Below are positions 8,567 through 58,000 of a DNA stretch of 64,000 bases, piece by piece. Source of the stretch: Naegleria gruberi (Eukaryota). How positions within the stretch are numbered: position 1 is the stretch's first letter; every line of letters starts with the position of its first letter. The notes beneath the pieces are model-generated. The model saw nothing but the letters and a program-made list of their open reading frames with translations, was not told where the DNA came from and ran no database searches. The position numbers and the translations under genes are program-made. The stretch lies in the NCBI GenBank assembly GCA_000004985.1, contig GG738856.1; one strand, given 5' to 3'.

Positions 8567-8742
8567 AAATAATGAAATTGTAATCTTGTTCAAATGCCAT
8601 TGTTCAACATTAAAAATATCAAATAAATATCAATTTTAATAAAATCAAATAATAATAATATTAGTGTGGAAAGATTCTCATTCCAGAGAGGGATGATGAT
8701 GGAAAGAAAAGAAATAAAATTTCAAAATTTTTATGAATAAAA

Positions 8743-8967
8743 ATGTTAGAGAATTTAAAAAAAAATGACCAATCTTCCACCATCTTATGTAGTAGTAGTA
8801 TTCCAGATGATGGTGGTGATAATTCCATGAATATACATAATGATGATATTGAAAATATTGAATTATCTATTGGTGATGTTATTTGGTTAAAATTAGAAAC
8901 ATTTCCATGGTGGCCTGCAAAAGTATGTTTTTGTTTTTTATTATTTAATCATTTAATCATCATCATC

Positions 8968-8999
<32 letters not shown>

Positions 9000-10653
9000 T
9001 TATCATCATATAATAATAATAATATAAATATCATCATCATATAAATATTATCATCATATATTAAAATAATAGATTGTAGATTGTAATGATACAAAAATAC
9101 CTAATACAGTATTAAAAGAAAAACAATCACATTTAAAATTAGTTAAATTTTTTAATTCACCACCATCAGAAGAATATTATTGGATTGATTCAAATAAGGA
9201 TATGATTAAATTATTTAAAAATGATCCATATTTATTAGATAATAATGTTACTGTTATTAAAAATAATCCAAATTTAAAAAAAGCAATTCATCAAGCTAAA
9301 CAATTATGTGGATTTGAATTACCTAATAATAATAATAATAATAATTTATCATCTAATGATAATTCTAAAAAAAGAAAGAATGAAAATGAATTATCAAATG
9401 AAAATAAGAAAATGAAAGATTTAGTTATATTAACAGATGAAGAATTAAATTCTATTAAAGAAGAATTATCTAAATCTATTGAAACTAATAATAATAATGA
9501 TATTAAACATTATTTAAATTTTATTAATGATAAATGTAATCAAATTACAGTTGATCAATTAAAAACTTGTAAAATTGGTCAAGTTGTTGCTCAATTAAGA
9601 AAACATTCAGATGAACATATTTCTAAAATGGCAAAAGATTTAGTCAAGACTTGGACTTTATTAGTTTCTTCTTCTTCTTCTTCTTCTAATACTGCATCTA
9701 ATAGTACTAATACTACTACAACTAATAGTGGTACTACTTCAACAAATGCTGCTACTACTACTACTACAGCAACTACTACAACTAAGAATGAAAAGGCTCT
9801 TAATAATACTCCTAAAAAATCATCAACCACAGATGATAAACCTAAAATTAAAAAGGTTATTAATACAACTACTGGTAGTACTAGTACAACAAGTGCAACA
9901 AAATCATCCAACACCAATACCAATACCACCACCACTACTAGTAGTAATAGTAGTACAACTACAACAACTAAACAACCACTTGCTATTAAACCAATTAAAA
10001 CATCACAATTATCCAACCATAATAATCAAGCAGTATCATCATCATCATCATCACCATCATTAAAATCACCAACAACACCACTCTCTGCATCAAGTTCATC
10101 CAATTCACTATCTAGTAGTACATTATTTGATACAAGTAAAATACCACAATGTACTGAAAGTAATCGTAATAGATGGAGACAAAAAATAGGAGAAGGATTA
10201 TCAAAAGTACCAAATTCTACTGAAGATTTAATTATTGAACTATGTGTTGAAATTGAAACACAAGTTTATAATTATTTTAAAACATTAATAACAGCAACAT
10301 CTTCATCATATGATGATCATTGTAGAACATTGAGTAGAAATTTAAATGCATCTAATAATGATGATTTTAGATCAAATGTTTATCATTCAATTATTCCAAT
10401 TGAACAATTACCAATTATGAAAGTACAAGATATGGCTTCAAAAGAGAAACAAAAAGAAAATGCTCTATTACAAGAACGTAAATTACATAATAGTATGGTT
10501 GCTAAACCTGCTGCTGTTGAATCTTCAATGTTTAGATGTGGTAAATGTAAGAAAACTCAATGCACTTTTTATGAAATGCAAACTAGATCTGCTGATGAAC
10601 CTATGACTGCTTTTATTACTTGTCTAAGTTGTGGAAATAGATGGAAACAATAA
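8743..10653 (+). CDS. PWWP-domain / TFIIS (transcription elongation factor S-II) fusion protein. Two exons, 8743..8922 and 9073..10653.
   Basis: Exon 1 ends '...GDVIWLKLETFPWWPAK' followed by GTATGT. Exon 2 starts after a TAG acceptor in the same phase with '...KLVKFFNSPPSEEYYWIDSN', completing a PWWP-like fold. It then has a TFIIS N-domain-like 'IGQVVAQLRKHSDEHISKMAKDLVKTW', a central-domain-like region, and the C-terminal zinc ribbon 'CGKCKKTQCTFYEMQTRSADEPMTAFITCLSCGNRWK' with the RSADE acidic loop. Confidence 0.65.
8923..9072 (+). other. Spliceosomal intron (150 nt) of the PWWP-TFIIS gene.
   Basis: AAA|GTATGT donor and TAG|ATT acceptor. The length is a multiple of 3 and the frame is preserved. 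Confidence 0.6.
8941..9060 (+). repeat. (ATA/TAA)n microsatellite with interspersed 'atcatcat' inside the intron.
   Basis: Visible as 'ataataataataataataataataat...atcatcatat' at 8950-9059. Confidence 0.7.
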
Positions 10654-10899
10654 ATTTTTTTATACCATATATATTTGAAAGAGAAGAATTTTGATGAAGA
10701 TTAATAAGGAAATTAACAAACCTATTTTAAAAATTGGCGGTAAATAACTACAATTCATCATTGAATAGCCTTTAAAAAAACAATCAAAAACACATCTCTC
10801 TATCTTATTATTATTTTAATAAATAATAATAATATCTATTCAACAATACATCATTCTCAACAATTTCATACAAATCTTAGTAGTAATTTTAATAATAAT

Positions 10900-12636
10900 A
10901 TGAGGAAATTAGATATACAACAAATATTATCTTCACCTCTTACTCAACAACAACAACAAGTTTCACCTAAATATCATCATCCACATCATAATACAAATGT
11001 TAGCCCTCATCATGTCACTTTTTTATCACCACCTCAAACTTCAAATTCATCATCAACAACACCATCCCACCAACATCAACCTCCTTCATCAATAATACAT
11101 TCACAACAATATCTTCATCCACCAATAAATAATTCAACAACATCATTACAACCACCTAATAGTTCTGGAACAGTATCATATGGTGGATTAGGAGGATATA
11201 GTGGAATGCCACCTTATTCACCTATTTTAAATCAACACAATTTAAAACCCAAACGTATTAAATCAAGTATTGAAAGAAAATCACAGAAAATACCATGGGA
11301 ATTACCAACTATTAAAAGAGTTATTAGAATACAAAGTGCACCTAGGAAATATGTTAATAATTCATCATCTTCATCATCTTCATCTTCAAATATTAAATAT
11401 CAACGTAATATAAATACAAGTATATGTAGTGATGGTAAAATTGTATCAAGAAGAAAATATGAACAAGAACAAGAATTTACAAATGAATATGAAACACAAA
11501 GTTATCATGATGATGATCAAGATGAAGATGATGTAAATAATATAATAGATGATGATAATGAATATTTAGAAGAGGAAGAATATGAAGAAGAAGAACCAGA
11601 ATATATTTCAAATTATCATCCAAAACATTTTCATCGTAATATTGAACAAGATGAATTAGAACAACAACAACAATATGAATTGGAACAATCACAACAATAT
11701 GAATCAACAGAAGATGAACAATATGAAGAAGAACCAGAAGAAAGAGAAGATGAATATCAACAAGATGATAATATTTCATATAATTCAAATAATAATTCAA
11801 ATAATTTCAATAACAAACGAGTGATTAATAATGGAAAGAAATCATTTAAAAATCAATTAAATAATAATAGAAAAATTCAACAACAACAATATGAAGAAGA
11901 AAATAATGAAGAGGAACAACCTATTATTGAAGAAGAAGAAGAATCAAAACAATCTATAATAGAAGAAGAAGATGATTATACACCTCCACCACCTAAACCT
12001 AAAAAACCATTTTTAAAAAAAAAGAAACCTATTTCTGTAATACCTCCTAAAAATAATAATATGAAAAAATCAAAATCAAATTCAAATATAGAAGATGAAA
12101 ATAATTTAAATATTTTAAATAATTCTAATAATAGTAGTAATAATATAAATAATATAAATGAAGAATTAATTAATGAAATTTCATTTAATTATGAAGGAGA
12201 AGGAGGAGGAAGTGGAGATGAATTTTCATCAAGTTTAAATAGTAGTTTTAAAAGTACATATTCAAGTAGAAGTTTAAAATCTAGTAGAAGAAGAGTTTTA
12301 AATAGATATAATGATACTTCTATAAATAGTAATATTAATGTTAATAATTCAAATTCTAATAATAATTTAAATAATTTAAATAATAAATTAAATAAGAAAT
12401 ATATTTTAAAAGAAGGTGAAGATTCTATAATAGTTTCATTAGGTAATAAAAATCAACCACCACAATCTAAAAATAATTTAAAAAGAAATTTAATTACTCC
12501 TATAAATGGAAATAATAATTTATTTGTAAATGTTAATAATAATAATAATTTAAATTCAAGTATTGGTCAAAATAATGAAGATGAAATATTAGATAAATGT
12601 TTAAATGATCCTGAAAATGAAATATTGGTATGTTAA
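10900..12636 (+). CDS. Low-complexity N/Q-rich acidic protein, function unknown. It may continue through small 3' exons, for example a candidate exon at about 12716..12807 encoding 'NCIEFIQSEGWEDQLSGIMLIIRLAKFHSDVIDSK'.
   Basis: ATG at 10900. The track ORF ends '...EILVC*', but 'TTG|GTATGT' at 12626 is a good donor. A downstream AT-rich stretch ends in 'aaatag', followed by an open frame and a second GTATGT at 12808. The downstream exon structure is not resolved. Confidence 0.45.
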   Translation: MRKLDIQQILSSPLTQQQQQVSPKYHHPHHNTNVSPHHVTFLSPPQTSNSSSTTPSHQHQPPSSIIHSQQYLHPPINNSTTSLQPPNSSGTVSYGGLGGYSGMPPYSPILNQHNLKPKRIKSSIERKSQKIPWELPTIKRVIRIQSAPRKYVNNSSSSSSSSSNIKYQRNINTSICSDGKIVSRRKYEQEQEFTNEYETQSYHDDDQDEDDVNNIIDDDNEYLEEEEYEEEEPEYISNYHPKHFHRNIEQDELEQQQQYELEQSQQYESTEDEQYEEEPEEREDEYQQDDNISYNSNNNSNNFNNKRVINNGKKSFKNQLNNNRKIQQQQYEEENNEEEQPIIEEEEESKQSIIEEEDDYTPPPPKPKKPFLKKKKPISVIPPKNNNMKKSKSNSNIEDENNLNILNNSNNSSNNINNINEELINEISFNYEGEGGGSGDEFSSSLNSSFKSTYSSRSLKSSRRRVLNRYNDTSINSNINVNNSNSNNNLNNLNNKLNKKYILKEGEDSIIVSLGNKNQPPQSKNNLKRNLITPINGNNNLFVNVNNNNNLNSSIGQNNEDEILDKCLNDPENEILVC

Positions 12637-13879
12637 TTTAATATTTAATATTTATTTAATATTTAATTTAATGATCATGTATTTAAATAATTTAAATAGA
12701 ATTGTATTGAATTTATTCAATCAGAAGGATGGGAAGATCAATTATCAGGTATAATGTTAATTATAAGATTAGCTAAATTTCATTCAGATGTTATTGATTC
12801 TAAAATGTATGTTTTTATTTAATAATTTTAATAATTTTATAATAATTTTAAAATAATTTTATAATAATTTTAATAATAATATTATAATCATGTTAATGAT
12901 AAGATTTATTGGGATTTTGTTAAAATTATTGATAAAAATTAATTCTTTTTTAATTTTTTATTAATCCAAATATATTCTTGTTTCTGAGCTTATTATATTT
13001 CCTATATCACTAAGATGTACATCATAAAATAGACAAAAGAGAGGAATTGAAATATTTGTTACAAAAGTTATGTACTACTACCTATTACATTTCTAAGTTG
13101 GGTTGCAATATAAATTATAAACGTAAGTGCTATTGACTAATTATGTTCAATAAATTAACTAGACTATTGAATACAGTGTACTTGTGTATATTTCTAAAAC
13201 AACTAACTAATTCTAAACATAGAATATATAATAGAGTACAATATTGATAATAAACTCCATAACAGCAACAATAGTCATAAGACGACCGAAATCAATCGAG
13301 TAATATAATATCAGTAACCAGTAACTAAACGAATGTATTTAGTCATTCAAAATAATGGCGTTAACATAACACTGCACTTCAAAAACTTATTGTATATTCT
13401 GTGTTACCAATACACTTTACTTACACAAGCATCTTCAACCTATATTATTTGATGAAGACACCACAAGATTAGAATACGTAAGATATGTTAAGTACTGATA
13501 ACAGATATTACCTATGTGTATAACATCCACTATCTGCAGTCAATGCGTGTGTACAATTCACTACACTCTTACGAAATAAATTGTGTTACAACTTGATATT
13601 GCCCCGAGTTCGTAATGCGTACTCTAACGACTTGGTATGTTCACAAAAAAATTGAGATTTTCCATGCATAAACTAAGGAAATGGATGAACAGAGGGAAAA
13701 GGCAACAAATTTAAGCTTCCAACACAAAGATCAGCCCAATCATTAGTCTCTCTATTAACAAATAACTGTCTCATGCCACTTGATGCCACGTTGAATTCGT
13801 TTGATTCAACGACCATGTGAAATCTCATTGCTGATGTTATGAGATTGGACATTAAATGTCATTTATCAATTAAAAAAAA

Positions 13880-24747: not shown

Positions 24748-27700
24748 TTATTGTAAATTAAATGTAGTTGAAAGAGCTAATGTTTGTAAAAGATCAATTT
24801 GATTGGTAAGGTAAATATTTTGTGTAACACTTGCAATGTTAAATAAACATTGTTCCTTTTGATTGGATCTATCTTCTTGTATCATACCAATATAATCTGT
24901 ATCAGCTTCATAAACCGTCAATAAGGATTTAACCTTAACCATCATGTTAGTAATCTTTACAGTTGTATCTGAAACAGCTACACGATGTTCAAGTGTGTAA
25001 AGAGTTAAATGTTTAACTAGATCTAATAATTCTGTAATTTGAATATCCAATCTACATAATGCATCATAGGTTGATTTAATATTGGATGACTCGGTGAAAA
25101 TTGTTGAATTTCCTTCAACATGTGCTTCAAGATCTTCAAATTGTTTTCTCACACAAATATATCTATATAAAATATCACCTCCCTTACTCCAATTTGGAAT
25201 CAAATCTTGATGATTATAAAGCTTTTGAACATATTTAGAAAGTTCTTCATACTTGTTACAAAGTAAAAGATCAGATAGAATATATTCTAGGAAAACATTG
25301 TGAGCTTCAATATAATTATGATAAAGACACAAATTTTCAAATAATAAATGATAGGAACATGTATATCTAGCATAAAGAGCTGCAGCTTCATATATCCAAT
25401 TAGGAGAAATTTGTAATTGAGAGATGAATTTCATTCCTGATTCATTAGACATGAGAATAGGATAATTTCTAAAGAGAATTTCTCTGAGTGCTCTATTTCT
25501 AACATCAATGAGTCTTTCTCTCTTGAATTTAGAAACAAGACTATTTGATTTGTCTTGGTAATTCAATTCTCTATTAATATCATCTGAAATATTTGGCATT
25601 AAATCACAATGACACAATATAAACAAGGCATATTGTGGATACCCAGATTGTTCTAATTGAAGAGCATAATTACAAGTGATAATATGTGACATTGATCCAG
25701 TAGTATCACAACTTGTAACACGTCTCAATACATTATACAAATGCCATGTAAGTTGACAATCTAAAATATCATCAATATAAGTGGATGGTTCTAAAGATGA
25801 ACTTATTGGTATTTCTTTTTTACAATACATTCCTAAAATATGATACCTCAAATCATAATGTGTCTCTGATGAATGTCTAGATGATGATAAAAATGGTTTA
25901 GTGGCTCTAAAAGTTTCAAAATAATTTGTATAACTAGAGAAAACTTCACTAATTGTTGTATCTGGAGAACTCTTATACCACAAATGCAAACCCAAACATT
26001 GAAGCCATGTTAGAGAAGTATCACAAACATTACCTGCTAAGAGTTCATAAATTTTGATCAAATCCTTTTCAATATTAGCTTTTGCTTGTTTCCATAAATT
26101 AATTTGTTTTTGAATATCCTTTTGCATGAAAGGATTTGAGAAGGATTGAGAAATGATTGAAGAAAGTCTCACATCCTTATTATCGAGAGCAACTCTAGCA
26201 GCTTCTGCAATTCTTCCAGAAGATAACAACAAGTAAATTTTTTCCAATGGTTTTGGATTAGCTCTATTGATAATTTCATCAATTGGAATTTGTTCACGAA
26301 TCCAAGCACTCAAATTTCTCTTTCTAGCAATATCAGTTGCATAATTATTACCATCAAGCATATCAACATCACCAAAAAGTAAATTAGCAAGCTTCCATAC
26401 ACTCAACTCAAACTTTTCACGATTAACAATCAATTGTTTAGTAGCATCAGAGAAGTGATAATGATCAACTGAATTAATTATCTTTTCACATTTTTGAACG
26501 TGACCTTCCATTAATGCTGTATATGAATTATTCTTGAGAGAAATATGAACATCAGTAGGATCTCTTTCAACGTGTTCAATTTCCAAGTGAACCTTAGATT
26601 CATATTTGAGTTTAAGATATTCTTCATCTTGATTTTGTGGTACTTGCTTATCTTCTTTTACAAAGAACTCTGACACTGAAATATTGGAAACTTTTGATTT
26701 TGGATTAAATACAATAGTAGGTACAATAAATTGGCCATTAGGTAAAAATCCCACTCTAAATGATCGACTCAATGAAAACAATGAATCTCTCTTGTCAGAC
26801 TCTGCCTCTGCATCTCCAACAATATTTGATGGAGTACTGTCGATATACTTTCTTGGTTTGATTGTTGGTTGTTGGATTGGAGCATCCTTTTTAATAAATG
26901 CTAAAGTTGGTTCTGATTCAGAAATTTCCTTAAATCTTGGTTTCTTAGTTTGTCTAATAGCTTCAAAATCGATATTATTATCATCAGCAGCTTCATCATC
27001 AGTCATTAAATTTGCTTGCATAATGTACATTCTTCTTGGATCTAAATTAAGTTGTCTTGGAAGAAATGTTCTGTGACTTTCAATTTGCATAACATCTTCT
27101 CCTTCTTCCTCATCATTATCCATAACTTCTTCCTCATCAACAATTTCATCTGAATTGGTGCAGAATAGAGTTAATTATGTTAAAAAAGAAAGTTTAATTT
27201 GTTTCATTATTACAAATTAATATCTTACCTTCTGAAGTATCCGAAATTTCATCAAGATTGATTTTTTTCACAACTTGAAATGGTTCTTGTTTTTCCTCCT
27301 CATCTTCAATAATTTCTTCCTCTTCCTCGTCGTCAAAAATACCATACTTGGTAAAGTGTTCAACTTTGAATGTCCATTGTCCGGTTTCATAGTCAATAAA
27401 TCTACTACCAGACTTTTCATTGGCTTTTCTCAACTTTCTTTCAAATTGCTTGTAATCATTGTTCTTTGGATGGACATTGAACAATTTAATGATGGTTGGC
27501 TTATTGAGTTCAGTTCCAACTGGAGGTTTGGTCCTTTCTGTGTATACATTGCTACTATATACCTCCACATGATGAGTTTCAATCTCGTAAATAATTTTAT
27601 CCAAATCCAAATTCTTAGTCAAGTCAGTAACTCCAAGGAACTCAACTTCACCATATCCTTTTCTTCCTACAGTGAATCCATTACAATTTTGCAAGTCGTG

Positions 27701-30142
27701 TTGAGACATTTGCTTCATTTGTTCAAAGGATGGCTTGGTGTAATATCCTTCCTTTGTTAACTTTGGTAAATAGCTTGGTTTAACAGTTGTTTCCTTTGGT
27801 GCTTGTTCAATATCAAGAGAAATACCTTTACCCTTTTGAGGTTTTGGTCTAATAGCATTACTACTAATTGTTTTTTGAGAATCATCTCTTTCTATAGTTG
27901 TACCAGTAGATCTTGGTTGATTCAATTGTTGACTTGATCTCTTATCAAAAACAGCAGAAGAAATTGTCAATTCCTTAACATTTTCCTTAGAAGTAAATGA
28001 ATTACTATCAAGCAAGTCCAATGTTACAGGTTCTGTATCAGAAGCAATTAAAGACATTCTGTCAACCAATGTACTATTAGAGCTCTTTTTGAAAGTTCTT
28101 GGTCTAACTTGAGTTGATGTCTTTTGAATAGACTTTGAAATAACACTAGATTCTTCTTCTTGGGCATAGCTTTGCTCGAGTGCTTCCTTTTGAAGTTGGA
28201 AAAGAGGATTAGTACCAAATGGATCTGCCAAGAGATTATTAAGATCTTGGAGAGCCATTGGAGCAACACCATATCCGGTATTGGTTGGTTGAGCACCAAA
28301 ACCTGTTGTCATGCCAAGTCCAACACCAGTAGGTCCACCAAAATTGAAACCACTTGTTCCTCCAAGAGGTTGAGTAGTAGTGCCACCAAAATTGAAACCA
28401 GATGAACCAGTTGTGTTACCTCCAGTTGTACCAAAATTAAATCCACTACCAGTTGTAGTACCAGGTCCAGTTGCGCCCAATCCACCACCACCAAAGTTAA
28501 AACCAGTAGATGGTGCTGTAGTTGTTGTACCAGTTGTTGCACCAAATCCACTTGTACCAGTACCAAAATTAAATCCACTTGATGTTTGAGCTGGTTGTGT
28601 TGAGCCACCAAAATTGAAACCAGAACCAGTATTAGTTGCACCAGTTGTTGGTTGTGTTGAACCACCAAAATTGAAGCCAGAGCCTGTGGTTCCTGTATTA
28701 GTTGTTCCTCCTATAGGTGCAAGAGTTGTAGAACCACCTCCAAAGTTGAATCCTGAAGAAGGTTGAGAAGCACCAAATCCAGTGGTAGTGTTAGCTGTTC
28801 CTGTATTACTAGATCCAAATGCAAAACCAGTGTTTGCAGTTCCTGTTGTTGGTTGTGATCCAAAGCCTAATCCTCCAGTGGTTCCTGTTGTTGGTTGTGA
28901 TCCAAAACTAAAGCCAGTACTAGTTGTGGCAGGCTTATTACCGAATGCAGATGTTGTAGAACCGAATCCACCTGTAGTTGTATTACCAAATCCAGTGTTA
29001 GTAGTAGTACCAAATCCTGTTTGTGTGGTAGGTTGAGTTCCAAAACCAAAGCCAGTATTAGAAGCACCTCCCATAGTTCCTGTCGTTCCAAAACCAGTAT
29101 TTGTTGTTGTTGTTGTTGTTCCAGTATTTCCAAAAGAGAAACCTGTAGATGGTTGAGTTGTTTGTCCAAATCCTCCAGTTGTGGTACCAGTTGTTGGAGT
29201 AGAAAATGGATTTTGAGTTAATTTTCCTTGAGATGCAAGTGTGAAATACCATCTCCATTCTTCAAATGATTTATCCTTGTAAGGATCCATTTTAGTAATC
29301 GAATAGTATATCATCTTTGAATTTGTAGTAGTATTGTTTTCTTCAGTTGGCTTAAATGATGGGAAAGATTGTGGAGTAATTGGTCCACCAGTATTTCCCA
29401 TACCCATACCTGTGGTGTTAGTTGCTCCGAATCCCATTCCAGTATTTTGTGTTGGTTGAGCTCCAAATAAACCTCCACCAGTAGTGTTTTGTGTTGGTTG
29501 AGATCCAAATGAAAAGCCTGTACCTGTTGTTGGTTGAGTAGAACCAAATGTACCTGTTGTTGTTCCAGTAGTCCCACCAAATGGATTGGATGCACCAAAT
29601 GCACCTGTTGTTCCTGTACTTGGTTGAGAACCAAAACTAAATCCTGTGCCACCTGTTGTTGTGGTTGTTCCTGTTGATCCAAATGTATTTGTGGATGGTG
29701 CTCCAAATCCAGTGTTAGTTGCAGTGGTTCCACCAAAAGGATTACCAGATGCACCAAATGTATTACCTTGTTGTTGTGGTTGTTGTGGTTGTGTTTGTGT
29801 ATTACCAAAGCCAAAACCTGTATTTGTAGCTCCAGTTGTACCAAAAGGCTTATTTTGACCAAAAGCACCAGTTGTATTATTATTCATTCCACCAAAGCCA
29901 CCAGTATTTGTCGATGGTTGAGAACCAAAGCTAAATCCTGTATTTTGGGTTGTTCCTGTTGATCCAAAACCTCCACCACCAGTGTTTGGTTGTGCTCCAA
30001 ATCCACCACCTGTATTTCCACCAGTACCAAAAGAAAAACCAGTACCTCCTGTTGTTCCTGTTGATCCGAATCCACCACCACCAGTGTTTGGTTGTGCTCC
30101 AAATCCACCACCAGTATTAGTACCTCCACCAAAATTAAACAT
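24748..30142 (-). CDS. NUP98: Nup98-Nup96 nucleoporin precursor. Two exons, 30142..27229 and 27149..24748. It has N-terminal FG/GLFG repeats with a GLEBS motif, then the autoproteolytic domain, then the Nup96 alpha-solenoid.
   Basis: Start is 'MFNFGGGTNTGGGFGAQ' with dozens of FG/GFGxxxx units. GLEBS is 'SITKMDPYKDKSFEEWRWY'. The autoproteolytic domain ends 'FKVEHF|TKYG' (compare human 'KVSHF|SKYG'). The donor GAAG|GTAAGA at 27223-27228 and the CAG| acceptor at 27150-27152 join in frame to 'MDNDEEE...' (Nup96 region). Confidence 0.85.
27150..27228 (-). other. Spliceosomal intron (79 nt) of Nup98-96. It lies about 30 codons downstream of the HF|TKY self-cleavage site.
   Basis: GTAAGA donor and CAG acceptor, joining the track ORFs in frame. 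Confidence 0.6.
28222..30142 (-). repeat. FG/GLFG-repeat coding region (degenerate tandem units of about 30-36 nt).
   Basis: Repetitive 'ggtggatttggagcacaaccaaacactggt...' units. They produce many spurious antisense and off-frame ORFs in the track. Confidence 0.7.
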
Positions 30143-41605: not shown

Positions 41606-44600
41606 ATGACTTCCTATTTTTATCCATCTGTTTCATTTACTAATACTCCACATATTGTATTTGCTTGTGTTGGTGTGATTGGTATTATACTAACTTTAGT
41701 AATTACCATTTTTGGAATTTATTTAACAATTGAAACAATTCCACCAACTTCATACAAAACATTCTTTTCACTTGCTTTAATTTATCCATTCTGTTCATTA
41801 ATTGTCACTAATCAAATAAGTGTCATTGCAAATATTATTTGTAGTGAAAAATTCTCCTTCATTTCCTCAATTATTAAGATTATTCTAAATATGGTAGTAT
41901 TCTGTTTAATGTTTAGAACATTTCCATTTTTTAGAAAATGGGAAAATTGTTTCTTCTTGGGAATTGTTGGTTCTAAAATTTTGGCGCCAATTGTTCCCTT
42001 AGTTTTACATTTTGTTAAGGGAAATGACATTATTGGCGGATCATTGACAGGTGTCACATTTATTGCAGCCTTAATTGGTTTCGTATTAGCAAGTCTATTT
42101 TCCTATATTTATTCCAGTTTACATTTGAGACATGTTAGAAAATTATTGGATTACAAATCAGAAACAAGTAATACTTTACAATATTTGGAACATTCAAAAG
42201 ATGTACAAAATTCAATTTCACTCTTTCTTCGATTTTCATTAACTCAAACAAGAAATTTGACAAATTTAGAAGGAAGTGATTTTGATTTTGCAAAATATTT
42301 TGTTTTACAAAATGGAAAAAACATGTCATCTGCTGAAATGTTAATTACCTGTTCAATGTTTATTGCATTTGGTCAATTGGAGGGATATGATAAAAGTCAA
42401 GCATGTGCACTTGGTTTAGCATGTTTACAAAAAGCAGCAAAGAATTCACCCAATCAAATTCAAATATTTCACATCATGCTAAGAATGGAAGAATTGGAAC
42501 ATTTAGCCTTTCATGGAAATAATTTGGAAGTTTTAAGAAGATTGGAAACTTTAGAAAAAAAGGTAAAAATTTTAGGAAGAGCTCACAAAACATTTTTTAA
42601 AGAATTATTGAATGAAAAGCCAAAAATTACAAAATTGGAAAATATCAATCGTACATGTTGTGTACTTTACAATGAATGTGATAAGATTTATGAGAATTTA
42701 TTGAATATGAGTAGAAATAATAAGGCACTTTTGAAATCTTATGCTTCCTATTTGGAAAAATATAAATGGGAATTCCAATTAGCTCAGGAATTTTATGAGG
42801 AAGCTCAAGAGGCTGAAGAAGATAAGAAAACTGCACAAATTATATTGAAATCTAGACGAAAGTCAATGAAAGGTGAAATTCCACAACCAATTCCAGAATC
42901 AGCAAGTAGAAGATTCAGTATCACCAATACTTCATATATGAATGATGAAAATTGGGATTCGGTTAGTTGTGCAGCAGCTGAAGAGAATGAAGATAGAAAG
43001 GATAATATCATTAGAAGTGCTATTAATACTCCTATGAATACTTTGATTTATTCATTATCTTTCTTATTGATTAGTTTAGTTTCAATTATTGCTTTGGCTA
43101 TCATTGCACCAATGGCATTGAGTTATTCTGCAACCATTGATATTAGAATGTCAATGCAAGAGAAAGTATGCTTAATGTCAGGTGTTCCTTACAAGATGCT
43201 TTCACAAATCAAAGCCCTCCAATCAGAACATGCCTTGAGAGGTTTCATTTCTCCTCAAATGAAAAATTCAACCTATACTCAAACTAATCTCATGTTAGAT
43301 TTAACAGAAGAAGTAATAAGTGCAGGAAGTAATGGTAAACTAATTCCAGAAGTAGTCCAAGCCTATTTAAATAGTGAATATATTGTAAGCATTCCAATTA
43401 AGAATTATTCACTTGAAAATACTTCAATTATTCCTGAATATTCACAAACTAATACTTCACTATCTTTCTATATGGGTACTATTCTAGCTCAGGGTAGAAA
43501 TGTTCTGTTACAATTTTCAGATTTGGAAACTTTGACAACTCATTTGGATAACAATTATCCATTTTTATTTTTCTATTACAATAGAATGGTCATGACAAAT
43601 GCATTTAACAAATTTTGTACAACATTTGTGAATGCTAGTGTTGATTCATTGGATCAGAATTTCAATTCTTTATTAATTGCTTCTTGTTCAGTTATGGTAG
43701 TTTATCTATTTTTGGCAATTTCTTACTTGTTAGTAATGCGTATGCATACTAAGAGAATTACTATGGAAATTAAGGGCGTATTCAAAAAGATTCCAAAAGA
43801 TGAAATTGGAAAAATTTATCATAATTTTGATAAGAAATTGGACGATACCATGAATTCATTGAATTCATCCATATTGAAACCTAATCGTTTAATTATTTTA
43901 TCAGGTTGTGTTACCATTCTAATAGTTTGTATGGGTATTATTTTGATTCTCATTGAGTATAAACTAAATTCAGATAGAGCTTCACTTTCAATGAATAATC
44001 TCAGTATAATTAATAGTGTATTATATAGAGTTTCAAGTGTTAATTTCAGAGTTAATGAAATGATTCAAAGATCAAAATATAGTCAATTGACTACTTTTAA
44101 TCAATTGAGAGATTCAAGTGTAACGGATATTCAAGCTATTCAAAAATATTGGTATTCCATAATTTTGGGAAATGATAAATCTGGTTATCAATCAGCAGTG
44201 GTTGGAAAATATTCAGATATTGATGCTCAATTGAGTAATACATGTAATGATACTATTGAAATGAATTTTGCAAACACTACTAATGATAACTTATGTTTTG
44301 GATTGAATGATTTCATTACTGAATTCATTTCTAGAGCTACTGAATTGAATGAAGAAGCTTTTAAACTATCTGATTCGACAAGTGACTTGACAAGAAGATA
44401 TATTGATAGACTTTTCTATCTTTCTCAAGTATTGACTCAACAATTATTAGGATTTGTATCTAAATTTGTTGCTCATGAAAAAACTGCTCAAACTTACATT
44501 ACAGCAACTTCAATTTCTGTTACAATTATTGTAATCATTGTAATGGGAGTATTGTGTTTCAATTCTTTACTTAGTTTTTGGAAGGAACGATTCTGCTTGA

Positions 44601-45862
44601 GAATGCTATTGAATTATCTTAATATGGAAGTGATTGAAAACACTTTCCTATTGAAGGAATATGTCATGTCCAATTCTGTTTCATTTTCAAATACTACAAC
44701 AAAAATTATGGGAAAGCTCAATAAGATTCATTCAGAGGATAGCTCAACATGTGGTGATGAATCCATTCTAATGGTCAAAACAGTACTCAATGGAGGTGTC
44801 GATGCAAGTATTCTTTGTAATAGAGAAGGAAGTATTACAATATTTAATAATGCCGCTGAGGAAATGTTTGGTTATGCAAGAGCTGATGTTTTAGGTGATG
44901 CAATTCAAACTCTATTCACAGAAGAATATTCATCTCGATTGACCAAATTAATGAGTTCAGAATCAACATGTAAAGGTGATACCTTCGAAGCTATTGGATT
45001 ACGCAAGAACAAGTCAACCTTCAACTCAAAAGTCAGTGTTTCAGTCACAACCTACGATAAGAAACCCATGTTAATTGCCTTTATTAGAGATGTAACTCCT
45101 GAAAAGAAACTAAATTTGTTAATTTGTGAAGAAAAAAAGAAGAGTGAAGATTTATTATTGAACATTCTGCCACAAGCAATGGCTTCACGATTGAAGAATG
45201 GTGAGACGAATCTGTACGAAAAATTCAATGATATTAGTGTATTTTTTAGTGATATGGTTGGTTTTACATCGATGAGTTCTGGAATGCAACCAAGTGAGCT
45301 AGTTCAAATGCTCAACTCAATTGTGCAGGGTTATGACAAGTTGACAGAAGTTCATGGAATTGACAAGATTAAAACCATTGGTGATGCTTATTTTTGTGTT
45401 GGTGGACTTCAGGCAAGCAAAACTTCTGATCATCCAGAAAAGATGTTGGCATTTTCAATTGACATTATGTCATTTTTAAGAAGAACTAATGCTTCCACTA
45501 ACAAACCAGTTAATATTAGAGCAGGAATTCACACAGGTGAAGCAGTAGCTGGCGTAATTGGATTTAAAAAGTTTGCCTATGATTTGTGGGGAGATACTAT
45601 TAACACAGCTTCAAGAATGGAGTCAACCGGAGTTCCAGGAAGAATTCAAATTTCCAGAACAACCTATGAAAGAGTTTACGATTTGGGTTTTGAATTTGAA
45701 GAGAGAGAACAGGAAGTGAAAGGAAAAGGAAAAATGAAATGTTACTTGTTATCGAGTAAACATCATGAAAATCCAATGAATTTTCAAGATGATGATGTGA
45801 ATATTAGAACATTTCAGAGTACAGAGTTTTTGAGTTTGAAAGAACATCACGATTGTAAATAA
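41606..45862 (+). CDS. Multi-pass transmembrane nucleotide cyclase (adenylate/guanylate, class III) with a PAS domain immediately upstream of the catalytic domain.
   Basis: Several predicted TM helices lie in the first 1000 aa. The PAS-like block is 'ILCNREGSITIFNNAAEEMFGYARADVLGDAIQTLFTEEY'. Cyclase catalytic motifs are 'FSDMVGFTSMSS', 'KIKTIGDAYFCVGGL', 'AGIHTGEAVAGVIG' and 'YDLWGDTINTASRMESTGVPGRIQIS'. Confidence 0.8.
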   Translation: MTSYFYPSVSFTNTPHIVFACVGVIGIILTLVITIFGIYLTIETIPPTSYKTFFSLALIYPFCSLIVTNQISVIANIICSEKFSFISSIIKIILNMVVFCLMFRTFPFFRKWENCFFLGIVGSKILAPIVPLVLHFVKGNDIIGGSLTGVTFIAALIGFVLASLFSYIYSSLHLRHVRKLLDYKSETSNTLQYLEHSKDVQNSISLFLRFSLTQTRNLTNLEGSDFDFAKYFVLQNGKNMSSAEMLITCSMFIAFGQLEGYDKSQACALGLACLQKAAKNSPNQIQIFHIMLRMEELEHLAFHGNNLEVLRRLETLEKKVKILGRAHKTFFKELLNEKPKITKLENINRTCCVLYNECDKIYENLLNMSRNNKALLKSYASYLEKYKWEFQLAQEFYEEAQEAEEDKKTAQIILKSRRKSMKGEIPQPIPESASRRFSITNTSYMNDENWDSVSCAAAEENEDRKDNIIRSAINTPMNTLIYSLSFLLISLVSIIALAIIAPMALSYSATIDIRMSMQEKVCLMSGVPYKMLSQIKALQSEHALRGFISPQMKNSTYTQTNLMLDLTEEVISAGSNGKLIPEVVQAYLNSEYIVSIPIKNYSLENTSIIPEYSQTNTSLSFYMGTILAQGRNVLLQFSDLETLTTHLDNNYPFLFFYYNRMVMTNAFNKFCTTFVNASVDSLDQNFNSLLIASCSVMVVYLFLAISYLLVMRMHTKRITMEIKGVFKKIPKDEIGKIYHNFDKKLDDTMNSLNSSILKPNRLIILSGCVTILIVCMGIILILIEYKLNSDRASLSMNNLSIINSVLYRVSSVNFRVNEMIQRSKYSQLTTFNQLRDSSVTDIQAIQKYWYSIILGNDKSGYQSAVVGKYSDIDAQLSNTCNDTIEMNFANTTNDNLCFGLNDFITEFISRATELNEEAFKLSDSTSDLTRRYIDRLFYLSQVLTQQLLGFVSKFVAHEKTAQTYITATSISVTIIVIIVMGVLCFNSLLSFWKERFCLRMLLNYLNMEVIENTFLLKEYVMSNSVSFSNTTTKIMGKLNKIHSEDSSTCGDESILMVKTVLNGGVDASILCNREGSITIFNNAAEEMFGYARADVLGDAIQTLFTEEYSSRLTKLMSSESTCKGDTFEAIGLRKNKSTFNSKVSVSVTTYDKKPMLIAFIRDVTPEKKLNLLICEEKKKSEDLLLNILPQAMASRLKNGETNLYEKFNDISVFFSDMVGFTSMSSGMQPSELVQMLNSIVQGYDKLTEVHGIDKIKTIGDAYFCVGGLQASKTSDHPEKMLAFSIDIMSFLRRTNASTNKPVNIRAGIHTGEAVAGVIGFKKFAYDLWGDTINTASRMESTGVPGRIQISRTTYERVYDLGFEFEEREQEVKGKGKMKCYLLSSKHHENPMNFQDDDVNIRTFQSTEFLSLKEHHDCK

Positions 45863-55068: not shown

Positions 55069-58000
55069 ATGGTGAAAAAGGCAAAAAAACCAAGCCATCA
55101 TGATGAAGAGGAAATAACTGACGAGGATTTTATGGATATTATGGATTGCCTAAATCCCAGACAATTCGAACAAATGTCCAGATCGTTGGGATATACTGTA
55201 AGAGATTATGATCATGATTCCGATGATTCATATTTTAGTGATGAGTGTATTGTAGCACCAACACCAGAGTTGGAAACTTTGTTAATTAAAAGAGATTGTC
55301 TTGCTGAGAAATTACTTCCACCAGATAAAAACATCAAGAAGAGAATATTGGATTTGTTGGAGCAGAGTTGTGTATTGAATGGAGATTATATTACTGGAGG
55401 AAAATTGGATTCGAATTACTTGATGCCTGCTATTGAAATTCTTCTTGAGGATAATGGAAAATACAAGCCATTACCACTGCCAATTGTTTATGCGGAACAG
55501 GTCACTGAATTGATAAGGAATTGTTCTTTTGGAAGGACTGAAAATGTAAACATTACCAAATCATGGCACTTGGATCCACATAAATTCAGAATTACCAACC
55601 CTAAATGGGATTCGTCAATTGAAGAATTAGTTAGAAAGGTCAAAGCAAAGCTTGGTATTTTGAATGAAAAGAAGATTGACTTCTCACTTTCCAAAATGAT
55701 ATTGCATGAGGAGGGAGGTTTATTTGATTTTTGCACGGATATTGATAAAGAGGATGGAATAGTTGCTAACTTGTTAGTTCAATTACCTAGCTCATTCACT
55801 GGTGGTAATTTTACATTGTCTCACAGCGGAAAGGAAATGAAATTCCAATACAAAGATGAATCCACCTATTCTCCATACTATGTCAGCTTTTACTCTAATT
55901 GTGAACACAAAGGAGAACCACTAACCTCTGGATACAGATTATCGTTGGTTTATAATTTGAAATATTCTGGATCTGATAGAATTGCACCATATGACAGTGC
56001 TACACAATTGAGAGATATGCAGAATATTATAGAAACTTGGATCAAGGTTCCAATGTATACCAAGCTCTGTTACATTTTAGAAAACAAATATACAAAGGCC
56101 ACCCTTGGTCCATCTGTGTTGCAAGGAAAGGACAAAATTGCTTATCAGTTATTTTCACAACTTGAACACGTTGAGGTTCATTTAGCAACTTTAGAAAAAC
56201 ATGAAGAAACCATATGCCTCTCTGATATGAAGTATGATACTGAACTCAGGTATAAGGCTCATACAACAAATAATGTACGAATTGATTTTATCGTTGAAGA
56301 CGAAGTGCTCCCTGATGTGGCTAGAAGGAGAATGGAGCTAACTCATAAGGAAGTAAGTATTATTGAGATTCGCGCTTCAGTTTAATTATTACAGGTTGAA
56401 GATGAGGAAGATTTTACTGAATATATGAAGATAAATCGTTGCTACAAGAGTACATGTATCCTCATATATCCAAAGCAACTCAAATCACTCTGTAATCAAC
56501 TAGACCCTTTAGAAAAATTTTGGAAAGATTATAAGGAACAAAAAACAGATAAGAAGAAAAACATTTTGATGGCATACACTTCGTCTCTCCTCTGCTGTTC
56601 TGAAGACAATCTTAGTACAAGGAGTTTTGTAGACATGTCAAAGTTTTCAGATATTTGCCTTACCTTGAATTATCTTCCATTAAGCTTGAAATATGTGGAA
56701 AAGGTATTAATTGTAGATGAATTCAAGACTGAGGAAGCAACAATTTTATTAACCAAGGTAATCAAGAATCATGGCACTGAACATTTCAAGGAATTAGTCA
56801 GTAATAGTTTAGAAAAGTGTTGTAAGTTGATATTTTTGGTAATAGTACTAAATATTTTTATTCTTTTCATAATTACAGTCAAGACTAAAAACTATTATTC
56901 AAATGAAATTACAGCAATTGGAAAAATGATTTTGGAGCTGAACGAGCAATCTTGGATTACTCATTTTGTTGATAAGGTAGTATCACTAAAGTCATTAAAT
57001 ATGGAGTGGGCACATCCAGATGCTATTATGATCATTTTCAAATTGAAAGACCAATATCCAAGTTACTCAGAAAAGCTAAACCAATTTATTGATGCGTATG
57101 TCAAATCAGAGCTGTCTATTGATAAATCAAGAGTTGGTTGCTCTCTAATCAATTCAGAAGTTGTCATCAAATTGAACATGATTAACTTGGCTCTACCTTT
57201 ATTAAATAGAATGTCATGTAAAATGGACGATAAGGAATTGAATGAGGTTGTAGCAGTGATGAAACATTTTGGCATTGAAAAGACTGAACCTTTATTAGTT
57301 CTGGCTCTGAAAGATCTGCATCGATACCCCTTCACCCCAAGGAGGCTTGCTATTCTACAATTATCCATGCAGAGCAGTGCAGAAGCTAAACACTTATCTG
57401 ACAAAATATTTGAAAGTATCATCCAAAATTTTGATTTCAAATTGGAAAATGCATCAGAATACGTTGATTTATTAACCTTTTTCAGAAATAATGATAGGAG
57501 TGCAGATGAAATAAGATTTTCCAATGCACTGATTCAAAAAATATCAATTCCAAAGTATTCCTATTCCTTGGTTAAAGAAATAATCAAAACTAATGGAATT
57601 GAATGTTTTGGAACTGGAACTGGATTGCGGATGATTTTGGAACATTCCTACAAAGTATTATTTAATTCGGCTACTACACCCAATGCTTCCCATAGCTTGG
57701 ACTTGGACTTGGAAGGAACCTCTACGTGGGTTTTTAATCACATTACCCTTTCATGTTCATGTGAGCATTGTGAAAAGGTAAAAAAGTTTCTCATTTCAAA
57801 TGAAAAGGTATTTTCTCTAAAAGAGAAACTAAATGCCCGAAAACATGTAGAAACAATTCTTAAAGAACAAGTAGACCTTATCAAGGAAACAATTAAAGCA
57901 GGCTCTCCACAAACTCTCAAACTCACCAAGACGAGAATGAGCCCAGATGCAAAAAAGGCAATTACTGGCTCAATTGAAAATATCCTTAAACAATACATAG

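What the first reader, a model, noticed from the sequence alone, without database searches (positions are those of the whole stretch)
8743..10653. TFIIS elongation factor fused to an N-terminal PWWP chromatin-reader domain
Exon 1 ends in the PWWP signature (GDVIWLKLETFPWWPAK) at a GTATGT donor. After a 150-nt intron (3n) the frame continues with the rest of a PWWP-like fold (KLVKFFNSPPSEEYYWIDSN). It then runs through a TFIIS N-domain-like helix bundle, the central domain and the catalytic zinc ribbon with the RSADE loop. Canonical TFIIS carries no PWWP. A methyl-lysine/DNA reader wired directly to the transcript-cleavage factor would be a lineage-specific way of targeting TFIIS to chromatin.
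Basis: partly seen in the sequence, partly recalled or inferred. Interest (0 to 1): 0.55.

Follow-up and report, generated by a model that had tools for sequence, protein, structure and literature searches.

The report
PWWP–TFIIS elongation factor gene
This is a real two-exon gene of a Naegleria-like amoeba that joins a PWWP chromatin-binding domain to a complete TFIIS factor, but the same fusion was described in trypanosomes in 2008 and occurs in several protist lineages, so it is a new member of a known kind.

Summary
Exon 1 (8743..8922) ends in ...FPWWPAK at a GTATGT donor. A 150-nt intron (8923..9072) has 10.7% GC and many in-frame stops. Exon 2 (9073..10653) continues the frame. The 586-aa product passes Pfam gathering scores for PWWP (aa 44-137, spanning the junction), the TFIIS N-terminal domain, TFIIS_M and the TFIIS zinc ribbon with RSADE.

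Against a PWWP profile built only from relatives, this splice model is the best of 28 possible ones. The Naegleria lovaniensis orthologue lies in a syntenic locus, carries the same four domains and has an intron at exactly the same phase-0 site. So do two environmental relatives. A Percolomonas transcriptome contig encodes the uninterrupted fusion.

The fusion is not a new or lineage-specific invention. Trypanosoma brucei TFIIS2-1 has the same PWWP-I-II-III architecture, as does a red-algal TFIIS (Uzureau 2008). I also found it in a diplonemid, a glaucophyte and several unnamed eukaryotes.

The likely function is a transcript-cleavage factor tethered to nucleosomes. All three aromatic-cage positions are aromatic (F54, W57, F86). 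However, trypanosome data show that such PWWP domains need not read methyl-lysine.

Verdict: new member of a known kind, low to moderate interest.

The parts
8743..8922 (+). Exon 1 (60 codons): N-terminal tail plus strand 1 and the PWWP motif (GDVIWLKLETFPWWPAK)
   Evidence: It is conserved with the N. lovaniensis exon 1 (tblastx 8866-8931 to L001 10079-10144). Alone it scores 24.7 bits against the relatives-only PWWP profile.
8923..9072 (+). Intron, 150 nt, GTATGT...AATAG, phase 0, 10.7% GC, (AAT)n and (ATC)n tracts, many in-frame stops
   Evidence: An intron lies at the homologous phase-0 site in N. lovaniensis (168 nt), in L004 and in L006. This is the best of 28 splice models.
9073..10653 (+). 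Exon 2: the rest of the PWWP barrel, TFIIS domain I, linker, domains II and III, and the stop codon TAA
8872..9303 (+). PWWP domain coding region (aa 44-137, interrupted by the intron). Aromatic-cage positions are F54, W57 and F86.
   Evidence: Pfam PF00855, 48.2-52.9 bits against a cutoff of 25.6. Residue-level alignment to NSD2/NSD3/DNMT3B/MSH6 PWWP domains runs across the exon junction. The orthologue model shows five strands plus a helix and matches PWWP structures.
9367..9378 (+). KKRK (aa 159-162) in the short basic linker; a candidate nuclear localisation signal
   Evidence: Read from the sequence. KKRK-type motifs sit in the same linker in the relatives. The NLS role is inferred only.
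9439..9684 (+). TFIIS N-terminal domain (domain I / TND helical bundle), aa about 183-264, with invariant W254
   Evidence: Pfam PF08711, 49 bits. PDB matches to TCEA1/TCEA3/Elongin-A TNDs. The orthologue model has a helix bundle at 213-295 with pLDDT 85-91.
9685..10137 (+). Thr/Ser/Asn-rich low-complexity linker (aa 265-415), predicted disordered
   Evidence: Composition is T 45, S 36 and N 17 of 151 residues. The equivalent region of the orthologue has pLDDT below 50.
10153..10491 (+). TFIIS central domain (domain II, the Pol II-binding domain), aa 421-533
   Evidence: Pfam PF07500, 60.3 bits against a cutoff of 29.2. Aligned to human TCEA1 and yeast Dst1 chains taken from Pol II complexes.
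10531..10647 (+). TFIIS zinc ribbon (domain III), aa 547-585, with CGKC...CLSC ligands
   Evidence: Pfam PF01096, 62.8 bits against a cutoff of 21.
10585..10599 (+). RSADE acidic hairpin (aa 565-569), the catalytic D568-E569 pair of TFIIS
   Evidence: QTRSADEPMT is invariant in all complete relatives aligned.

Best explanation
One two-exon, protein-coding gene of a Naegleria-like heterolobosean encodes a 586-aa PWWP-TFIIS.

The C-terminal two thirds are a complete, catalytically competent TFIIS:
- Domain I (TND) docks disordered motifs of other elongation or initiation factors.
- Domain II binds RNA polymerase II.
- The zinc ribbon inserts its D568-E569 hairpin into the polymerase pore and stimulates cleavage of backtracked RNA.

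The N-terminal PWWP barrel sits on a flexible basic linker. It most likely holds the factor on nucleosomes of transcribed chromatin, using a methyl-lysine pocket formed by F54, W57 and F86 together with DNA contacts. Rescue of arrested polymerase would then be concentrated where nucleosomes block elongation. In effect this combines in one chain what LEDGF/HRP2 (PWWP + TND) and TFIIS do separately in animals.

Shown here: the gene structure, the four domains, the conserved catalytic and cage residues, and conservation of the architecture and the intron in relatives.

Inferred: chromatin tethering, the mark that is read, and cleavage stimulation.

My estimates are about 0.93 that the gene and fusion are real, about 0.85 that it acts as a cleavage-stimulating TFIIS, and about 0.5 that the PWWP works as a methyl-lysine or nucleosome tether.
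For: Domains and catalytic residues:
- All four Pfam domains pass gathering scores, and the PWWP match spans the exon junction.
- PDB sequence matches to TCEA1/Dst1 include QTRSADEPMT and the four Cys.
- PWWP alignments to NSD2/NSD3/DNMT3B/MSH6 place F54, W57 and F86 at the positions of NSD2 Y233, W236 and F266.

Gene structure:
- The splice model is the best of 28 against a relatives-only profile, and the two exon scores add up.
- N. lovaniensis C9374_000563 has the same four domains, lies in a collinear locus and has an intron at the same phase-0 site.
- The same intron site is used in L004 and L006.
- The Percolomonas sp. WS transcriptome contig P0124 encodes the uninterrupted PWWP-TFIIS.

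Structure and conservation:
- The AF2 model of the orthologue shows a PWWP barrel with helix, a TND bundle, domain II and a zinc ribbon separated by disordered linkers. Foldseek matches both TFIIS and PWWP structures.
- The second and third cage positions are aromatic in all 10 PWWP-TFIIS sequences aligned; the first is Cys in N. lovaniensis and Ala in Lacrimia.

Literature:
- TbTFIIS2-2 PWWP binds H4K17me3 and H3K32me3, and the protein associates with Pol II and PAF1C.
- LEDGF/HRP2 combine a PWWP with a TND to help Pol II through nucleosomes.
Against: - There are no transcript data for this genome, so the splice junction rests on comparative evidence only.
Fold evidence comes from the orthologue.
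- In T. brucei, deleting the PWWP of TFIIS2-1 did not change nuclear or subnuclear localisation, and single knock-outs had no phenotype.
- The TbTFIIS2-1 PWWP bound neither DNA nor methylated histones.
- N. lovaniensis has Cys, and Lacrimia has Ala, at the first cage position. Methyl-lysine reading may therefore not be the conserved function.
- Whether this organism methylates H3K36 or an equivalent residue was not examined.
Confidence: 0.6

Rival explanations
1. The PWWP is real but does not read methyl-lysine. It would be a DNA- or protein-interaction module, or a largely redundant appendage as in T. brucei TFIIS2-1, and the protein would behave essentially as an ordinary TFIIS.
For: - TbTFIIS2-1 without its PWWP localises normally.
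- The TbTFIIS2-1 PWWP bound neither DNA nor methyl-histones.
- The first cage residue is Cys in N. lovaniensis and Ala in Lacrimia.
Against: - All three cage positions are aromatic in the window protein and in 8 of the 10 aligned family members.
- The domain has been kept across Heterolobosea together with its intron, which argues for selection.
- The TbTFIIS2-2 PWWP does bind trimethyl-lysine peptides.
Confidence: 0.3
2. The protein is a specialised TFIIS paralogue rather than the general elongation factor. It could, for example, work with PAF1C at termination regions as TbTFIIS2-2 does. A separate canonical TFIIS elsewhere in the genome would do the general job.
For: - Trypanosomes have three TFIIS genes with divided roles, and TFIIS2-2 is enriched at termination regions with PAF1C.
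- Independent TFIIS expansions are known in several lineages.
Against: - No second Naegleria TFIIS appeared among the 120 hits listed. This is weak evidence, because only the best 120 of 319 hits were shown.
- The window holds only one zinc ribbon with RSADE in a TFIIS context.
- The catalytic and Pol II-binding domains are fully canonical.
Confidence: 0.15
3. Gene-model artefact: exon 1 is a chance ORF or a separate gene or pseudo-exon. The real protein would start at M9202, or elsewhere in exon 2, and would lack a complete PWWP.
For: - There are no transcript data for this genome.
- Prokaryote-style gene callers on related contigs did call only the downstream ORF (P0003, P0006, P0126).
Against: - Exon 2 upstream of M9202 encodes strands 2-5 of a PWWP that are meaningless without exon 1. 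The joined product scores 94.7 bits, against 54.1 for exon 2 alone and 24.7 for exon 1 alone.
- The exon and the intron position are conserved in four genomes.
- The transcriptome-derived Percolomonas protein is continuous across the junction.
Confidence: 0.04

Closest known systems
Trypanosoma brucei TFIIS2-1 and its kinetoplastid orthologues (Uzureau et al. 2008, PMC2610381)
   Same: The domain order is identical: N-terminal PWWP, then TFIIS domain I with its conserved Trp (the LW motif of Uzureau et al.), domain II and the domain III zinc ribbon. Both organisms belong to Discoba.
   Different: Sequence relatedness beyond the shared domains is not demonstrable. The family PWWP profile matches two PDB PWWP chains over their full length: 2m1h, deposited as 'Transcription elongation factor S-II', and 2nas, deposited as 'Uncharacterized protein'. 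That both are T. brucei TFIIS PWWP domains is from memory, since the tool gives no organism. They score lower than NSD2/3, DNMT3B and MSH6. The trypanosome genes have no introns (background knowledge). The Naegleria-type gene has a conserved intron inside the PWWP and a long Thr/Ser-rich linker.
Naegleria lovaniensis hypothetical protein C9374_000563 (P0001)
   Same: It is the orthologue. It has the same four Pfam domains, a collinear locus and an intron at the same phase-0 site. Identity is 44% overall and about 66% in the conserved domains.
   Different: It has Cys instead of Phe at the first cage position, and PYWP instead of PWWP. Its first linker contains KKRKDDASDE-like repeats. Two extra genes lie downstream of it.
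LEDGF/p75 (PSIP1) and HRP2 (HDGFL2)
   Same: They carry an N-terminal PWWP plus a TFIIS-N-type helical bundle (TND/IBD) on one chain. They read H3K36me2/3 and help Pol II through nucleosomes. This is the likely functional analogue of the N-terminal half of the window protein.
   Different: They have no TFIIS domains II and III and no catalytic hairpin. Pfam assigns the window's bundle to Med26/TFIIS_N, not to the LEDGF IBD family.
Canonical TFIIS (yeast Dst1, human TCEA1-3)
   Same: Domains I, II and III, the QTRSADEP hairpin and the four zinc-binding Cys are all present. PDB matches reach E 3e-28.
   Different: Canonical TFIIS is about 300 aa and has no PWWP. The window protein has an extra 180 residues or so at the N terminus and a 150-residue low-complexity linker.
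Bye1 / PHF3 / DIDO (reader domain plus TFIIS-like domain II)
   Same: The principle is the same: a histone-mark reader (a PHD finger) joined to a Pol II-binding TFIIS_M domain. This comparison rests on background knowledge and was not tested here.
   Different: These proteins have no zinc ribbon or DE hairpin, so they do not stimulate cleavage.

Membership tests
TFIIS (transcription elongation factor S-II) | Central domain II (TFIIS_M) | tested here: met
   PF07500, 60.3 bits against a cutoff of 29.2, aa 421-533. Aligned to TCEA1/Dst1 chains.
TFIIS (transcription elongation factor S-II) | C-terminal four-Cys zinc ribbon (domain III) | tested here: met
   PF01096, 62.8 bits against a cutoff of 21, aa 547-585. 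Ligands are CGKC 549-552 and CLSC 577-580.
TFIIS (transcription elongation factor S-II) | Acidic hairpin RSADE with the invariant D-E pair | tested here: met
   QTRSADEPMT with RSADE at aa 565-569. It is identical to human TCEA1 in the alignment.
TFIIS (transcription elongation factor S-II) | N-terminal domain I (TND helical bundle) | tested here: met
   PF08711, 49 bits against a cutoff of 20.6. W254 is invariant. The orthologue model has a bundle with pLDDT 85-91.
TFIIS (transcription elongation factor S-II) | Binds Pol II and stimulates cleavage of backtracked RNA | not testable with these tools
   This needs biochemistry.
PWWP domain | Full-length match to the PWWP profile above the curated cutoff | tested here: met
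   PF00855, 48.2 bits (52.9 for the N-terminal part alone) against a cutoff of 25.6, profile positions 1-90 of 93.
PWWP domain | Five-stranded barrel followed by a helix | tested here: met
   This was shown for the orthologue P0001 only. It has strands at 31-35, 41-46, 67-72, 81-85 and 92-94 and a helix at 112-124, with pLDDT 70-87. Foldseek hits include HRP3 (TM 0.76), DNMT3A/B, NSD2/3 and BRPF PWWP domains.
PWWP domain | Aromatic cage of three residues | tested here: met
   F54, W57 and F86 align with NSD2 Y233, W236 and F266. That these NSD2 residues form the cage is from my own knowledge of the NSD2 PWWP1 literature.
PWWP domain | Binding of methylated histone tails and/or DNA | not testable with these tools
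   This needs binding assays.
PWWP-TFIIS fusion class (TbTFIIS2-1 type) | Collinear order PWWP, domain I, domain II, domain III in one polypeptide | tested here: met
   The architecture is as described in PMC2610381.
PWWP-TFIIS fusion class (TbTFIIS2-1 type) | Common descent with the kinetoplastid, red-algal and glaucophyte fusions, as opposed to convergence | tested here: inconclusive
   In an NJ tree of domains II+III, a 12-member clade holds only PWWP-bearing proteins or truncated gene calls from the window, Naegleria, Percolomonas and unnamed environmental contigs. Its bootstrap support is 14%. Cyanophora, Lacrimia and P0066 fall elsewhere. No kinetoplastid full-length sequence was available. 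The PDB PWWP comparison is uninformative.
LEDGF/HRP2 family | PWWP plus an IBD-type TND, without TFIIS domains II and III | tested here: not met
   Domains II and III are present, and the bundle is assigned to Med26/TFIIS_N, not to the LEDGF IBD. The protein is an analogue, not a member.

The most novel reading that the evidence does not exclude
The PWWP-TFIIS fusion may be an old elongation factor rather than a set of independent late inventions, which was the view argued in 2008 for trypanosomes against a red alga. It would be ancestral at least to Discoba (Heterolobosea, kinetoplastids and diplonemids) and perhaps shared with Archaeplastida (glaucophyte, red alga). In Naegleria-type amoebae it could be the only TFIIS, so that all transcript-cleavage stimulation would be wired to a chromatin reader. 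The conserved phase-0 intron inside the PWWP motif would then mark an ancient gene structure.
Probability: 0.25. Interest if true: 0.45.

Novelty: new member of a known kind. Interest (0 to 1): 0.25.

Why it matters
The finding adds heteroloboseans to the lineages in which TFIIS carries a PWWP, with comparative support for the gene structure. I found no paper describing this for Naegleria. With the diplonemid and glaucophyte cases found here, it suggests the architecture is more widespread and possibly older than the 2008 proposal of convergence implied.

In practice it is a correct gene model that prokaryote-style gene callers miss: they drop exon 1. Naegleria can be cultured, so it could be used to test whether a PWWP really directs TFIIS to methylated nucleosomes. 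The trypanosome work left that question open.

It does not reveal a new kind of system.

Tried and rejected
1. The first homologue search used the full protein and was swamped by low-complexity words, giving only 2 hits. I repeated it with the linkers removed.
2. The third homologue search used a PWWP+TND alignment. It returned only a Gongronella PWWP+Med26 protein and missed even the known relatives, so it was uninformative.
3. Exact look-ups of the spliced protein and of 8 neighbouring ORFs found nothing in the collection. The source genome could not be named. I can only say it is collinear with N. lovaniensis.
I modelled the orthologue instead.
5. An NJ tree of domains II+III was meant to decide between one origin and several origins of the fusion. 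Bootstrap support was too low (14%) to conclude anything.
6. I tested whether the family's PWWP is specifically close to two PDB PWWP chains that I recall as T. brucei TFIIS domains (2nas, 2m1h). They match over their full length, but less well than NSD2/3, DNMT3B and MSH6.
7. The alternative acceptor at 9079 and other donors were considered and score lower.
8. A second TFIIS or PWWP gene in the window: none. The only other RSADE, at 57496, is not in a zinc-ribbon context.
Full report
**Observation**

- An ATG at 8743 opens a 180-nt exon that ends ...GDVIWLKLETFPWWPAK at 8922.
- GTATGT follows at 8923. The next 150 nt (8923..9072) have 10.7% GC, against 26-29% in the flanking coding sequence. 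They consist largely of (AAT)n and (ATC)n tracts, contain many in-frame stops and end in ...AATAG.
- From 9073 the same frame continues with IVDCNDTKIPNTVLKEKQSHLKLVKFFNSPPSEEYYWIDSN... and stays open to the TAA at 10651..10653.
- The spliced product is 586 aa.

**Domains**

Pfam calls four domains, all above their gathering scores:
- PWWP, aa 44-137, profile positions 1-90 of 93, E 1.5e-12 (5e-14 for the N-terminal part scanned alone).
- Med26/TFIIS_N, aa 217-256.
- TFIIS_M, aa 421-533.
- Zn_ribbon_TFIIS, aa 547-585.

The PWWP match runs across the exon junction at aa 60/61.

Searches against PDB sequences support both halves of the protein.
- The C-terminal part aligns with human TCEA1 and yeast Dst1 taken from Pol II complexes (E 3e-28). 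QTRSADEPMT and the CxxC...CxxC ligands are conserved.
- The N-terminal part aligns with the PWWP domains of NSD2, NSD3, DNMT3B and MSH6. The alignment with the second PWWP of NSD2/NSD3 runs through the junction as far as the C-terminal helix (LKKAIHQA against FKKALEEA).
- In the NSD2 PWWP1 alignment, F54, W57 and F86 fall at Y233, W236 and F266. From my own knowledge of the NSD2 literature, those residues form the H3K36me2 cage.

**Is the splice real?**

There are no transcript data for this genome, so I tested the splice comparatively.

1. I built a PWWP profile from relatives only and scored all 28 in-frame, stop-free GT..AG models between 8800 and 9215.
   - Exon 2 alone scores 54.1 bits, exon 1 alone 24.7, and a start at M9202 only 11.6.
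   - The two exons therefore encode complementary halves of one domain.
2. The best homologue is Naegleria lovaniensis C9374_000563. It is 618 aa, carries the same four Pfam domains and is in NCBI/UniRef as a hypothetical protein.
   - Its locus is collinear with the window. Both have a gene of about 2000 aa with PH and Exo_endo_phos2 domains, then a DcpS_C/HIT gene on the minus strand, then the PWWP-TFIIS gene.
   - Its annotated 168-nt intron (GTATGT...TTTAG) lies at exactly the homologous phase-0 site...PYWPSK | ILNSNDKSIP against ...PWWPAK | IVDCNDTKIP.
3. Two environmental contigs carry TFIIS ORFs that had been called without a PWWP. Both have an upstream exon ending in PWWPAR or PWWPGE, followed by GTATGT or GTAAGT at the same site (L004; L006).
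4. P0124 comes from the Percolomonas sp. WS transcriptome (MMETSP0759). It encodes the fusion without interruption, and L006 is its 41%-identical genomic relative.

I put the probability that the gene model is right at about 0.93.

**Structure**

The model has four ordered parts separated by linkers with pLDDT below 50:
- a five-strand barrel plus helix at 31-124 (pLDDT 70-87);
- a helical bundle at 213-295 (pLDDT 85-91);
- domain II at 455-566;
- a zinc ribbon at 574-617.

Foldseek against the PDB returns TFIIS chains first. After those come PWWP domains: NSD3 PWWP2, HRP3 (TM 0.76), DNMT3A/B, NSD2 and BRPF.

**Source organism**

None of nine protein sequences looked up exists verbatim in the 15-billion-protein collection. 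The best I can say is a heterolobosean close to Naegleria. The evidence is synteny with N. lovaniensis, about 66% identity in the conserved domains and a window GC content of 27.8%.

**How widespread is the fusion?**

- The literature settles the main point. Uzureau et al. 2008 described T. brucei TFIIS2-1 as a PWWP plus domains I, II and III. It was the first TFIIS reported with a PWWP. They also noted a PWWP-TFIIS in the red alga Cyanidioschyzon merolae, which they interpreted as convergence.
- T. brucei TFIIS2-2 also has a PWWP. It binds H4K17me3 and H3K32me3, and the protein associates with Pol II and PAF1C at termination regions.
- I ran an exhaustive profile search of 1.84 billion representative proteins with an alignment of the family. 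Among the top 150 hits were further full-length PWWP-TFIIS proteins, which I confirmed with Pfam and named by cluster look-up:
  - Percolomonas sp. (Heterolobosea);
  - Lacrimia lanifica (a diplonemid; its PWWP scores 23.7 bits, just under the cutoff);
  - Cyanophora paradoxa (a glaucophyte);
  - several unnamed environmental eukaryotes (P0005, P0066, P0123).
- The architecture is therefore neither new nor restricted to this lineage.
- I tried to decide between one origin and several with a neighbour-joining tree of domains II+III. All members of a 12-sequence clade are PWWP-bearing proteins or truncated gene calls, from the window, Naegleria, Percolomonas and unnamed environmental contigs. 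Its bootstrap support is only 14%. Cyanophora, Lacrimia and P0066 fall elsewhere.
- The family's PWWP profile matches the PDB chains 2nas and 2m1h over their full length. 2m1h is deposited as "Transcription elongation factor S-II" and 2nas as "Uncharacterized protein". That both are T. brucei TFIIS PWWP domains is from memory, since the tool gives no organism. They score lower than NSD2/3, DNMT3B and MSH6.
- The origin of the fusion remains open.

**Mechanism**

Established knowledge of TFIIS assigns roles to the C-terminal domains.
- Domain II binds the Rpb1 jaw and funnel.
- The zinc ribbon reaches the active site, where the D-E hairpin promotes cleavage of backtracked RNA.
- Domain I (TND) binds short disordered motifs of other elongation or initiation factors (PMC9987994).

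All residues needed for these roles are present here.

The PWWP sits on a short basic linker that contains KKRK (aa 159-162), a possible nuclear localisation signal. All three of its cage positions are aromatic. By analogy with LEDGF/HRP2 (PWWP + TND, H3K36me2/3 readers that help Pol II through nucleosomes) and with TbTFIIS2-2, the most likely role is to tether the cleavage factor to nucleosomes of transcribed chromatin.

This step is inferred, and there is real counter-evidence.
- TbTFIIS2-1 without its PWWP localises normally.
- The TbTFIIS2-1 PWWP bound neither DNA nor methyl-histones.
- The first cage residue is Cys in N. lovaniensis and Ala in Lacrimia.

I give about 0.5 to methyl-lysine or nucleosome tethering. 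I give about 0.3 to a PWWP with some other or a weak role. I give about 0.15 to a specialised paralogue working beside an undetected canonical TFIIS.

**Verdict**

This is a new member of a known kind, namely the heterolobosean representative of the PWWP-TFIIS class known from trypanosomes since 2008. Its N. lovaniensis orthologue is already in public databases. Interest is low to moderate (0.25).

The most novel reading still open is that the fusion is ancestral to Discoba, or older, and is the only TFIIS in these amoebae. I put that at about 0.25 probability.

Noticed in passing
window 24748..27123 (-) and 27194..30142 (-): Two adjacent minus-strand ORFs lie 70 nt apart. One encodes the Nup98 autopeptidase S59 domain and the other Nup96. 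They are probably one Nup98-96 precursor gene interrupted by a short intron.
   Followed up: no
window 8733..8768 (+): A short upstream ORF (ATGAATAAAAATGTTAGAGAATTT...TGA) overlaps the main ATG at 8743 in another frame. Its significance is unknown.
   Followed up: no
L001 12338..19198 compared with window 10654..12900 and L002 1449..3721: N. lovaniensis has two extra genes (a 917-aa Pkinase+PARP protein and a 1294-aa protein) between the TFIIS gene and the CLASP_N-like gene. In the window and in metagenome contig L002 the CLASP_N-like gene follows TFIIS directly.
   Followed up: partly
L007 1323..3261 (GCA_006365135.1): This is another PWWP-TFIIS gene that had been split into two called genes. 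It has no intron after PWWPAK. Its intron lies later in the barrel, after ...ARFYNEHI, near the second intron of L004. Intron positions therefore vary within the family.
   Followed up: partly
P0001 aa about 135-185 (L001 10001..12025): The N. lovaniensis orthologue has tandem KKRKDDASDE-like repeats in the linker between the PWWP and domain I. The window protein has an Asn run and a single KKRK there.
   Followed up: no
window 41606..45862 (+): A 1418-aa ORF carries TPR, PAS and adenylate/guanylate cyclase domains. From memory, Naegleria genomes carry many such cyclase genes.
   Followed up: no
P0122 (Gongronella butleri, 307 aa): This fungal protein has a PWWP and a Med26/TFIIS_N bundle but no TFIIS domains II and III. 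It is a LEDGF-like architecture outside animals.
   Followed up: no
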